Source: a virus
Lineage: Duplodnaviria > Caudoviricetes
DNA: 64,000 nt
Reading direction: 5' to 3' (one strand)
IMG/VR virus record: IMGVR_UViG_3300029288_007089
Location: 8,654-72,653 of that record
Within the stretch, counting starts at the first letter, position 1. The number at the start of each line of letters is the position of its first letter. The notes under the pieces are model-generated. The model was not told where the DNA came from, made no database searches, and was given only the letters and a program-made list of their open reading frames with translations. The translations under genes were made by a program, and so were the position numbers. Positions 46,384-46,798 of the stretch are shown piece after piece.

Positions 46384-46557
46384 ATGAACGACGAAGAACT
46401 GCGCGCCGCCGGCGCGTGCGGCTATGCCGGCCATTCTGACGACAACGCGGCGGTGAACATTGCCCGCCGCGCGCTGTACCGCAAAGCGGATTGGCCCGGT
46501 GGCTATCGGGAGTTCCATCGTAGTTTCGCAAACGTCAGTACCTTTACAACAGAATGA
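46384..46557 (+). pseudogene. C-terminal remnant of a paralogue of the type V effector
   Basis: GACGYAGHSDDNAAVNIARRALYRKADWPGGYREFHRSFANVSTFTTE is nearly identical to the C-terminus of 9728-11149. Confidence 0.9.
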
Positions 46558-46741
46558 GGTTTGAGAACAGGGTGCAGTCACACACCCTGGGCCTGGGGCT
46601 GCGCGTAAGACCAGAGGGACGCCCGGCGTTCCTGGCGCGTCGAAACGCGCCACTAGCGGCGGCTTTGGGCTGAATCCCACGCTTTGCGTGGCACCGCAAC
46701 GCAGGTTGCGGTGGGCGAATCTCAGAATAGGCCATTGTGAC
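46558..46741 (+). ncRNA. Second copy of the guide scaffold plus a single repeat
   Basis: Near-identical to the reverse complement of 9543-9727; repeat 46705-46741 matches 33/37 nt; compensatory stem changes. Confidence 0.88.
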
Positions 46742-46798
46742 CGCTAGTCCTGGCGGCGCACGCGGCGCTGCAGGCGGGGTGGCTGGAGGGGGAGGGAA

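What the first reader, a model, noticed from the sequence alone, without database searches (positions are those of the whole stretch)
46384..46775. Orphan guide cassette 37 kb away: gene 3' remnant, scaffold and one repeat, with compensatory mutations
Seen: about 330 bp is an inverted paralogue of 9543-9875, covering the last ~48 codons of the effector, the whole scaffold and one repeat (33/37 identity), followed by new sequence CGCTAGTCCTGGCGGCGCAC. The stems covary: CAGGATG/CATCCTG becomes CAGGGTG/CACCCTG, CCGTGC/GCACGG becomes CCACGC/GCGTGG, and CACTGCAAC/GTTGCAGTG becomes CACCGCAAC/GTTGCGGTG, while GTCACA and TGTGAC are invariant. Inference: the RNA is under selection without its own protein and probably guides the 9.7-kb effector in trans from the early region. 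The retained gene tail may be part of the RNA, as with TnpB omegaRNAs.
Basis: partly seen in the sequence, partly recalled or inferred. Interest (0 to 1): 0.85.

Follow-up and report, generated by a model that had tools for sequence, protein, structure and literature searches.

The report
Nuclease-less guide cassette inside phage gene
A prophage that carries a miniature TnpB/Cas12f-like nuclease also holds, 37 kb away, an intact guide-RNA module without a nuclease gene; it sits inside another phage gene so that its guide is the flanking gene sequence, which related phages still carry uninterrupted, the layout of a transposon homing guide.

Summary
46410-46742(+) is an 89% identical inverted copy of 9542-9875.

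Three points change the reading.
1. The 20 nt after the repeat are not new sequence. The cassette replaces the body of a phage gene (X2). X2's first 9 codons and last 23 codons flank it, and the right junction is exactly the repeat's 3' end. Related contigs carry intact X2 in the same gene order and match the guide at 18-19 of 20.
2. The compensatory changes mostly predate orphaning. All 4-5 orphan-specific changes in the retained codons are synonymous, and its three amino-acid differences from the resident gene match a 95%-identical relative's gene. The cassette is therefore a recent remnant of a different, functional allele.
3. Only the last 12-18 codons show RNA-level constraint.

Across the family I found single-repeat loci, promoter-driven solo scaffolds, and two more insertions that end exactly at a repeat end.

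Best reading: a TnpB-omega-like, guide-only module that the resident nuclease probably uses in trans against phages with intact X2. Expression, loading and the flank motif are untested.

Another first-stage note on this same genome had already flagged this stretch.

The parts
46384..46411 (+). Start codon and first 9 codons of disrupted phage gene X2 (left flank). The left junction with the cassette is at 46410/46411, with a 2-nt CG overlap.
   Evidence: Best non-self match of this flank in the window is the start of paralogue X1 at 42892 (18/24). It aligns with the start of intact X2 in L065/L066, with the Shine-Dalgarno region and the upstream gene's end conserved.
46411..46557 (+). 3' remnant of a nuclease gene: last 48 codons plus the stop at 46555-46557. 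It is fused in frame to the X2 start, giving a 57-codon chimeric ORF (46384-46557).
   Evidence: weak PF07282 match; 78% over residues 414-472. Differences from the relatives are synonymous except three residues shared with L006.
46505..46565 (+). Probable 5' part of the RNA. A 35-nt block is identical to the resident copy. Tail stem P0 pairs 46527-46532 with 46560-46565 and spans the stop codon.
   Evidence: 78% paired, 2 covarying pairs; synonymous-site constraint. L006 unit B starts at the equivalent of 46508.
46568..46589 (+). Stem P1 (46568-46574 with 46583-46589). Its loop GTCACA lies at 46577-46582.
   Evidence: 98% paired in 15 family members, and 7 of 7 pairs have compensatory changes. 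Covariance model R1 scores 94.8 bits, E 1e-22.
46590..46676 (+). Central multi-branch region P2. The orphan-specific changes here create a pair or a wobble; none breaks a pair.
   Evidence: Single-sequence folds and pairwise alignment.
46677..46691 (+). Stem P3 (46677-46682 with 46686-46691).
   Evidence: 100% paired, and 5 of 6 pairs have compensatory changes. One pair is changed on both sides in the orphan alone.
46692..46713 (+). Anti-repeat (46692-46700), 4-nt loop (46701-46704) and first 9 nt of the repeat (46705-46713). This is the cis duplex that fuses tracr and crRNA.
   Evidence: One pair is changed on both sides relative to the resident copy. L006 unit A shows the wobble intermediate.
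46705..46741 (+). Single 37-nt repeat. Its last 6 nt (46736-46741) pair with the P1 loop as a pseudoknot. Its last base is the right end of the cassette.
   Evidence: 33/37. The pseudoknot is 98.9% paired, and 2 pairs covary in relatives.
46742..46761 (+). Guide position. These are the first 20 nt of the X2 remnant.
   Evidence: They match intact X2 alleles at 19/20 (L065:2067, L066:1537, L067:1072) and 18/20 (L062:5, L063:1930). Each of those sites is preceded by a flank ending ...GCCG. There is no other good match in the record.
46742..46812 (+). Last 23 codons of X2 (right flank; stop at 46810-46812). They overlap the start of the next gene (46802).
   Evidence: Best non-self match in the window is the 3' end of X1 at 43273 (37/49, against a background maximum of 30). 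They align to the C-termini of intact X2.
9728..11149 (-). Resident nuclease gene (473 codons from the likely start; the ORF is open to 11329). It is the only full copy in the record.
   Evidence: PF07282 at 1e-17. NCBIfam guided_TnpB at 91 bits, under its cut-off of 100. Nearest solved structures are Cas12f-type, E about 1e-16. D280, E364, D435 and four Cys are invariant in 27 homologues..
9404..9727 (-). Resident scaffold (9580-9727), fused to the first of three 37-nt repeats (9543-9579, 9470-9506, 9404-9440), with two spacers.
59777..59946 (+). Third, shortened scaffold with its own promoter-like and terminator-like sequences. This is context, not part of the cassette.
   Evidence: (24.5 bits, E 7e-4).

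Best explanation
The stretch is a nuclease-less single-guide module of the phage's own miniature TnpB/Cas12f-like system. It is what remains of a second, allelic nuclease-plus-guide module that came to lie in phage gene X2. The module's right end, which is the last base of its single repeat, abuts X2's last 23 codons. A later deletion (or the same recombination event) removed X2's body and all but 48 codons of the nuclease gene. The RNA would be made by read-through in the rightward operon. It would start in the last ~15-18 codons of the retained gene tail and fold into the family scaffold: P0, P1, P2, P3, the anti-repeat/repeat hairpin, and a pseudoknot between the P1 loop and the repeat end. 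Like a TnpB omega RNA, it would carry as a fixed guide the DNA that flanks its right end. That flank is a conserved junction of X2. In related phages the junction is uninterrupted and preceded by ...YCG; in this genome it is preceded by the repeat end. The most likely use is by the 9.7-kb nuclease in trans, to cut co-infecting relatives that carry intact X2 (exclusion or homing-type gene conversion). Shown: the paralogy, the fold and its covariation in the family, both junctions, the empty sites, the recent origin from another allele, and recurrence of such units in the family. Inferred: transcription, processing, loading, the flank motif, cleavage, and any benefit.
For: The paralogy is strong: 89% over 333 nt. 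Fifteen family scaffolds support the structure. P1 is 98% paired with 7/7 compensated pairs, P3 is 100% paired with 5/6, and the pseudoknot is 98.9% paired with 2 covarying pairs; 0 of 500 shuffles reach the observed covariation. The orphan scores highest of all hits with covariance model R1 and folds with z = -3.5. None of about 13 orphan-specific changes breaks a pair. The flanks are the two ends of X2, and the synteny upstream gene / X2 / downstream gene is conserved in L065-L067. The guide matches intact alleles at 18-19 of 20. The right junction falls exactly at the repeat end here. It does so again in the L006 tandem unit, whose guide is the nuclease-gene tail of the window-type allele with 1 mismatch in 33. 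It does so a third time in the L005 insertion, compared with the empty L007. Single-repeat loci occur next to full genes in L020, L042 and L043, while the close relatives L016 and L017 have arrays. Promoter-driven solo scaffolds occur in L012, L022 and at window 59.8 kb. Cross-use is plausible: the 95%-identical L006 nuclease sits next to two scaffolds that are only 76% alike, one of them 91% like the orphan. Omega-RNA-only elements that need TnpB in trans are described (bioRxiv 10.1101/2023.03.14.532601), and homing between co-infecting phages has been proposed for such systems (PMC13565253).
Against: No sigma-70-like promoter or terminator lies within 45900-47300. Because the truncation is recent, intactness could simply reflect youth. 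The structure is a replacement, not a clean insertion, and no left end can be identified. The record holds no Y1 or serine transposase. The flank motif rests on only two independent sites in GC-rich DNA, and a self-targeting spacer in the distant relative L019 has a different flank. The intact alleles carry 1-2 mismatches to the guide, one of them at position 5. No protospacers for the guide or the two array spacers were found in the viral collection.
Confidence: 0.5

Rival explanations
1. It is a dead relic. A recent recombination or deletion left a fragment of a second nuclease locus inside X2. It is not processed or loaded, has no effect beyond inactivating X2, and looks intact only because it is young.
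For: All orphan-specific changes in the retained codons are synonymous, so little time has passed since truncation. It has no promoter or terminator of its own. About 100 nt of gene tail with no RNA-level constraint are carried along. The phage also keeps another gutted tnpB-like gene beside an array at 41899-42561, which shows that such wreckage persists here.
Against: The right end is exactly the repeat/guide boundary, as in two independent events in relatives. The unit is in sense orientation in an operon, and the native translation stop context is kept in frame. The family repeatedly keeps solo scaffolds with their own promoters. The resident nuclease is present and its catalytic residues are intact.
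Confidence: 0.3
2. The cassette is a long-standing orphan kept by purifying selection on the RNA alone, as shown by compensatory changes that arose after it lost its protein gene.
For: Three stems differ from the resident copy by paired changes, and none is broken.
Against: The co-inherited coding tail shows 0 non-synonymous changes among 4-5 orphan-specific changes, and 0 among 9 differences from the L006 gene in the 98 nt with no RNA role. The divergence therefore happened under protein-coding constraint, that is, before orphaning. Two of the 'orphan' stem states, and several scaffold states, are shared with L006 unit B, which sits beside a full gene.
Confidence: 0.08
3. It is a decoy or regulator rather than a targeting guide. 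Either the RNA titrates or tunes the nuclease (its own or a rival phage's), in the manner of repeat-mimicking RNA anti-CRISPRs or cr-like regulatory RNAs, or the 57-residue chimeric peptide is the active product.
For: Phage solitary repeats that act as RNA anti-CRISPRs, and cr-like regulatory RNAs, are documented (PMC10651486; bioRxiv 10.1101/2023.03.03.530964). The chimeric ORF has a strong ribosome-binding site and is in frame. Continued selection on the peptide would also explain the synonymous-only changes.
Against: Neither the 12-nt nor the 20-nt guide start has a partial match near any promoter in the record. The unit carries the full scaffold and a guide with near-perfect targets in relatives, which a decoy would not need. 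The peptide lacks two of the three catalytic motifs and half of the zinc finger.
Confidence: 0.09
4. It is an assembly artefact: a chimeric join between strains at a repeated sequence.
For: The record comes from a metagenome, and the region is repeated within it.
Against: The two copies are only 89% identical. Both flanks belong to the same gene in the right order and frame, and the synteny matches that of relatives. An artefact would need two precise mis-joins.
Confidence: 0.03

Closest known systems
TnpB omega (right-end) RNA of IS200/IS605-IS607 elements, including protein-less PATE-like elements that need TnpB in trans (bioRxiv 10.1101/2023.03.14.532601; review PMC13565253)
   Same: The RNA overlaps the 3' end of the nuclease gene. 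The scaffold has a pseudoknot next to the guide. The element's right end is the scaffold/guide boundary, so the guide is the flanking DNA. The uninterrupted allele carries the target next to a short flank motif, while the occupied allele does not. A guide-only copy depends on a nuclease encoded elsewhere.
   Different: No TnpA or serine recombinase is present, and no left end or end hairpins were identified. The resident locus has a 3-repeat array with a split-capable tracr/anti-repeat. The host is a phage, and the presumed targets are other phages. The cassette replaces about 400 nt of the gene instead of being a clean insertion.
TranC, the transposon-CRISPR intermediates (as described in bioRxiv 10.64898/2026.03.27.714800 and its reference 12; solved LaTranC 9JFO)
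   Same: These are compact TnpB-derived nucleases with short arrays and no adaptation genes. Guides of right-end type and of CRISPR type coexist, and some members are phage-borne.
   Different: Sequence similarity to LaTranC is marginal (E 3e-4, zinc-finger region only). Clade membership could not be tested. Dual guide use is inferred here from genomic states, not from assays.
Cas12f (type V-F) with tracrRNA and engineered single guides (solved 8J1J, 7WJU, 8DZJ)
   Same: These are the nearest solved relatives by sequence (E about 1e-16 over the RuvC/zinc-finger half). They share 36-37-nt repeats that begin GTTGCA, a scaffold encoded between the gene and the array, and a similar protein size.
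   Different: The protein scores far below the NCBIfam Cas12f2 cut-off (74 against 450 bits). The scaffold is naturally fused to the first repeat and begins inside the gene. The family includes solo and single-repeat units.
Natural long-form tracrRNA single guide of Streptococcus pyogenes Cas9 (tracr-L; from my own knowledge, not checked here)
   Same: It is a naturally fused tracr-crRNA hairpin with a fixed guide, used by the resident nuclease.
   Different: tracr-L represses its own cas promoter through partial complementarity. No such partial site exists here, and the nuclease is type V rather than type II.
Phage solitary repeat units acting as RNA anti-CRISPRs (PMC10651486), and cr-like regulatory RNAs (bioRxiv 10.1101/2023.03.03.530964)
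   Same: Each is a single CRISPR-type repeat in a phage genome, away from any array.
   Different: Those elements mimic host repeats and lack a scaffold. This unit carries the full scaffold of a nuclease the phage itself encodes, plus a guide with near-perfect targets in related phages.

Membership tests
TnpB / omega-RNA (OMEGA) element | TnpB-family RuvC nuclease with intact D-E-D and a zinc finger | tested here: met
   PF07282 at 1e-17. D280, E364, D435 and C409/C412/C425/C428 are invariant in 27 homologues. NCBIfam guided_TnpB scores 91 bits, just under its cut-off of 100. This applies to the resident gene; the orphan keeps only 48 codons.
TnpB / omega-RNA (OMEGA) element | Guide RNA overlaps the 3' end of the nuclease ORF | tested here: met
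   Synonymous-codon identity is 0.73-0.76 in the last ~12 codons, against about 0.35-0.45 upstream. A stem spans the stop codon. L006 unit B keeps this stretch.
TnpB / omega-RNA (OMEGA) element | The element's right end coincides with the scaffold/guide boundary, so the guide is flanking DNA that differs between copies | tested here: met
   The junction at 46741/46742 was checked against intact X2 alleles. The same precision is seen in the L006 tandem unit and in the L005 insertion compared with L007.
TnpB / omega-RNA (OMEGA) element | Cognate transposase (Y1 TnpA or serine recombinase) and a defined left end with a target-adjacent motif | tested here: not met
   PF01797 and PF00239 have no match in the 72.6-kb record, although the record is only about 65% complete. 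The left end was lost in the replacement. The flank motif (..YCG) is only suggested by two sites.
Type V CRISPR-Cas (Cas12f-like / TranC-like) | Array of repeats and unique spacers next to the effector | tested here: met
   This is met for the resident locus (3 repeats, 2 spacers) and for most relatives. It is not met for the orphan itself, which has one repeat.
Type V CRISPR-Cas (Cas12f-like / TranC-like) | tracrRNA with an anti-repeat that pairs with the repeat | tested here: met
   A 9-bp anti-repeat/repeat duplex is present in both window copies and in L006, and it covaries. It aligns in only a subset of the family (54% paired overall).
Type V CRISPR-Cas (Cas12f-like / TranC-like) | Membership of a curated Cas12 subtype model | tested here: not met
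   Cas12f2 scores 74 bits against a cut-off of 450, Cas12e 37 against 200, and c2c8 15 against 350. LaTranC matches only at E 3e-4.
TranC | One nuclease uses both a right-end-type RNA and tracr+crRNA | not testable with these tools
   Both genomic states coexist: a fused single unit, an array, solo units, and single-repeat loci. Dual use itself needs biochemistry.
RNA anti-CRISPR solitary repeat units | A solitary repeat that mimics a host CRISPR repeat, with no cognate cas gene in the phage | tested here: not met
   The phage encodes the cognate nuclease, and the unit includes the full scaffold and a guide.
cr-like / tracr-L type autoregulatory guides | Partial complementarity of the guide to a promoter of the cas gene or of an associated gene | tested here: not met
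   Allowing 1 mismatch in the first 12 nt, the window holds no other site. With up to 3 mismatches in 20 nt, the whole record gives only a chance-level hit that the reversed-pattern control equals.

The most novel reading that the evidence does not exclude
Miniature type V modules in these phages behave as transposase-independent, RNA-guided homing cassettes. The CRISPR repeat's 3' end is a mobile-element right end. Each landed module carries a guide against the uninterrupted allele of its own insertion site. Guide-only derivatives such as this one ride on a nuclease encoded elsewhere in the genome to exclude or convert co-infecting relatives. If so, this would be a living intermediate between omega RNAs and CRISPR arrays, operating in phage-against-phage competition.
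Probability: 0.22. Interest if true: 0.85.

Novelty: new variant of a known kind. Interest (0 to 1): 0.62.

Why it matters
One phage genome shows, side by side, three states of the same RNA-guided system: a nuclease with a fused tracr-repeat and a short array, a promoter-driven minimal scaffold, and a guide-only module whose guide is the flank of its own insertion site. Relatives supply the empty target sites. This gives testable natural material on two questions: how right-end (omega) RNAs became CRISPR repeats, and whether phages use such modules for homing or exclusion against their relatives. It also offers natural compact single-guide designs for a ~470-residue nuclease. The test is simple: nuclease, the 46.5-46.8 kb RNA, and an intact X2 target.

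Tried and rejected
No close relatives of this phage turned up in the public collections I could scan. The phage records gave nothing with blastn over 45000-48500. The viral contig collection gave nothing with the nuclease, the downstream gene or X1 as queries, nor with a P1 motif pattern.

Exact-match scans of the viral collection for the orphan guide and for the first 20 nt of both array spacers found nothing.

The genome collection gave only three short contigs from metagenome-assembled genomes.

Whole-record searches of the long metagenome contigs behind L005, L009, L013 and others were not possible. Distant orphans in relatives therefore could not be surveyed; only flanks of up to 4-10 kb were.

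Rfam has no family for the scaffold.

BLASTP of the 23-residue X2 remnant gave no significant score because the motif is low-complexity. I replaced it with a genome-wide ungapped nucleotide scan and with alignment to intact orthologues.

I tested and rejected the idea that the L006 tandem unit is a nested insertion into a second nuclease gene: the upstream ORF is unrelated.

L052 and L053 turned out to be orthologues of X1, not of X2.

ARAGORN did not confirm my impression that the L022 solo unit abuts a tRNA gene, so I call it only a tRNA-like fragment.

One 3-mismatch match of the guide at window 63179-63198 is at chance level.

Full report
**What is there.** The window is bases 8654-72653 of a 72.6-kb virus record classed as a provirus, about 65% complete. 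At 9728-11149(-) it encodes a ~473-residue TnpB/Cas12f-like protein. The evidence: PF07282 at 1e-17; NCBIfam guided_TnpB at 91 bits, just under its cut-off; and nearest solved relatives of Cas12f type at E about 1e-16. The RuvC D-E-D residues and the four zinc-finger Cys are invariant across 27 homologues. The gene runs directly into a ~150-nt scaffold. The scaffold's anti-repeat is joined by a 4-nt loop to the first of three 37-nt repeats.

The stretch I was given, 46410-46742(+), is an inverted copy of 9542-9875. The arms are 209 nt at 91% and 127 nt at 87%, or 89% over 333 nt at E 7e-125. It holds the last 48 codons and stop of the nuclease gene, the whole scaffold and one repeat (33/37). 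The record has only one full nuclease gene and three scaffold copies.

**The family and the fold.** The nuclease has more than 120 homologues, almost all on uncultured metagenome contigs. I fetched 47 loci. The closer ones share the layout: gene, scaffold, then an array of 36-37-nt repeats that begin GTTGCA and end TGTGAC, TGTAAC or TGAGAC.

On an alignment of 15 units (A4), the structure I proposed is strongly supported:
- P1 is 98% paired, and all 7 pairs have compensatory changes.
- P3 is 100% paired, and 5 of 6 pairs have compensatory changes.
- The pseudoknot between the P1 loop and the repeat's last 6 nt is 98.9% paired. Two pairs covary: the loop changes together with the repeat end.
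- None of 500 shuffles reaches the observed covariation, and slid controls collapse to about 30-40% pairing.
- A stem that spans the stop codon is moderately supported (78%).

The orphan gets the top score with a covariance model of the 5' module (94.8 bits). It folds into the same architecture with z = -3.5.

**Is the gene tail part of the RNA?** Partly. Among 15 genes, I took pairs of sequences with the same amino acid and asked how often they use the same codon. That fraction is about 0.35-0.45 along the last 150 codons. It rises to 0.51 and then to 0.73-0.76 over the last ~12 codons. The resident and orphan copies share a 35-nt block with no change at exactly this place. A second unit in L006 keeps only this part of the tail. 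So the RNA begins about 45-55 nt before the stop codon, as TnpB omega RNAs do. The other ~30 retained codons are passengers.

**What the covariation does and does not show.** I compared the orphan's 48 codons with the resident gene and with the gene in L006, a 95%-identical protein. Four or five changes are specific to the orphan, and all are synonymous. The three residues where it differs from the resident gene are the L006 state. In the 98 nt that have no RNA role, the orphan differs from L006 at 9 positions with no amino-acid change. Random changes would be synonymous only about a quarter to a third of the time, so all 4-5 being synonymous has a probability of very roughly 0.001-0.01 under neutrality. 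The divergence therefore accumulated under protein-coding constraint.

The cassette thus descends from a third, functional allele of the whole nuclease locus and was truncated recently. The compensatory pairs are good evidence that the family's RNA is selected. They are not evidence that this copy has been selected since it lost its gene. Continued selection on the 57-residue chimeric ORF would also explain the pattern, but I consider that less likely.

- The finding's first base, 46384, is the start codon of another gene.
- The 24 nt before the cassette find their best non-self match in the window at the start of gene X1 (42891-43337).
- The 49 nt after the cassette find their best match at the 3' end of the same gene (37/49, against a background maximum of 30).
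- X1 has orthologues with conserved ends and a mosaic middle.
- Using homologues of the downstream gene, I recovered contigs L065-L067, which carry the intact orthologue of the disrupted gene (X2, 147-155 residues). They have the same gene order: the conserved end of the upstream gene, then X2, then the overlapping start of the downstream gene. L062 and L063 carry the same 3' module.
- Against these empty sites, the left junction lies at 46410/46411, with a 2-nt overlap.
- The right junction lies exactly after the last base of the repeat, 46741.

So the '20 nt of new sequence' are X2 codons. Intact alleles match them at 19/20 (L065-L067) and 18/20 (L062, L063). There they are preceded by a conserved flank ending ...GCCG; here they are preceded by the repeat end.

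**Recurrence in the family.** The same geometry appears elsewhere.
- **L006:** the first scaffold-repeat unit is followed, exactly at the repeat end, by a nuclease-gene tail, a second scaffold and the array. The first unit's guide is therefore the gene tail of the window-type allele (1 mismatch in 33), which in the genes is preceded by ...TATCG or ...TACCG.
- **L005:** a minimal scaffold ending in a repeat end is inserted in the gene tail. L007 is the empty site.
- **L020, L042 and L043:** a single repeat follows the gene and scaffold, with no array, although L016 and L017, which have the same repeat as L020, do have arrays.
- **L012 and L022:** like window 59.8 kb, these carry solo scaffolds behind consensus promoters. 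In L012 the loop and its pseudoknot partner have changed together.

In all three insertions that have an empty-site reference, the right junction falls on the repeat's last base. This argues that the position behaves as a defined DNA end. No transposase of the IS200/IS605 or IS607 kind is present in the record.

**Most likely mechanism.** The cassette matches the logic of a TnpB right-end RNA. The scaffold ends at the element boundary and the guide is the flank. The occupied allele lacks the motif next to the target, and the uninterrupted allele has it. Guide-only elements that depend on TnpB in trans are described for IS200/IS605 (bioRxiv 10.1101/2023.03.14.532601). Cleavage of the unoccupied allele in co-infecting phages or plasmids has been proposed as non-restorative homing (PMC13565253).

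I therefore read 46384-46812 as the remnant of a nuclease-plus-single-guide module that landed in X2, later losing the nuclease gene and the body of X2. I think it probable, but not shown, that the remaining RNA is transcribed by read-through, processed and loaded by the resident nuclease. Three points favour this:
- It is in sense orientation in the rightward operon, which also holds an RDF-like gene, an integrase and a type IV-B operon.
- The native in-frame stop context is kept.
- The L006 nuclease lives with two scaffolds that are only 76% alike.

The target is a junction conserved among relatives even when the rest of the gene is swapped (L063). That would make it a useful handle against competitors.

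**Limits.**
- There is no RNA or read evidence and no nearby promoter.
- No protospacers were found for the array spacers.
- The flank motif rests on two sites.
- The structure is a replacement rather than a clean insertion.
- Youth alone could explain the intact fold.

**Comparison with known systems.** It works like a TnpB omega RNA or a PATE-type guide-only element. It belongs by sequence to a Cas12f/TnpB-like clade that matches no curated Cas12 subtype model. The coexistence of fused, single-repeat and array states resembles what has been reported for TranC intermediates (bioRxiv 10.64898/2026.03.27.714800), but similarity to the solved LaTranC is marginal. It does not fit repeat-mimic RNA anti-CRISPRs or cr-like autoregulators. 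I class it as a new variant of a known kind.

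Noticed in passing
window 41899-42561: A second, unrelated system. An ORF keeps only the N-terminal HTH_OrfB_IS605 domain (PF12323, 5.5e-11) and is followed by four identical ~37-nt repeats with three unique spacers. As with the orphan cassette, a nuclease gene is gutted while its RNA part is kept.
   Followed up: partly
window 59777-59946: A shortened scaffold with a near-consensus promoter-like sequence (spacing 17) and a terminator-like hairpin. 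A short hairpin replaces the anti-repeat/repeat duplex. The sequence in guide position largely overlaps the terminator stem.
   Followed up: partly
L012:683-900 (-) and L022:170-400 (-): Solo scaffolds behind consensus -35/-10 promoters, transcribed divergently from the nuclease gene. In L012 the P1 loop and its pseudoknot partner have both changed and still pair. In L022 the unit's right end abuts a tRNA-like fragment that ARAGORN does not call.
   Followed up: partly
L006:2195-2756: Two scaffold-repeat units in tandem, only 76% alike. The guide of the first unit is the nuclease-gene tail of the window-type allele (1 mismatch in 33). One phage's module would therefore aim at a rival's nuclease gene.
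   Followed up: partly
L005:11395-11530 compared with L007:1960-1975: A minimal scaffold ending in a repeat end is inserted inside the 3' end of the nuclease gene and changes the protein's C-terminus. L007 shows the uninterrupted site.
   Followed up: partly
L015:5700-5900, L016:2290-2470, L050:390-560: In a more distant branch, the scaffold lies after the array instead of before it. It ends in a partial repeat followed by unique sequence.
   Followed up: no
L019:44-78 (-) and L019:2588-2622: A spacer of the L019 array matches the same 4-kb contig at 34/35, which is a self-target. The 5' flank there ends ...TCGCC.
   Followed up: partly
L063:1476-2000: The last ~27 codons of X2 are fused to a DNA polymerase III beta-like protein. 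The X2 3' junction is a conserved module boundary in these phages.
   Followed up: no
window 8956-9318 (-): A small gene just beyond the array encodes a ribbon-helix-helix-like N-terminus and a zinc ribbon. The ribbon weakly resembles the nuclease's own zinc-finger domain (PF07282, 1.8e-4, below cut-off). It may be a regulator of the locus.
   Followed up: no
L065:1618-1637 and L066:1088-1107: The gene upstream of intact X2 carries a second copy of the target-like motif (15/20), with the same 5' flank. The motif recurs in paralogous genes of this region.
   Followed up: no
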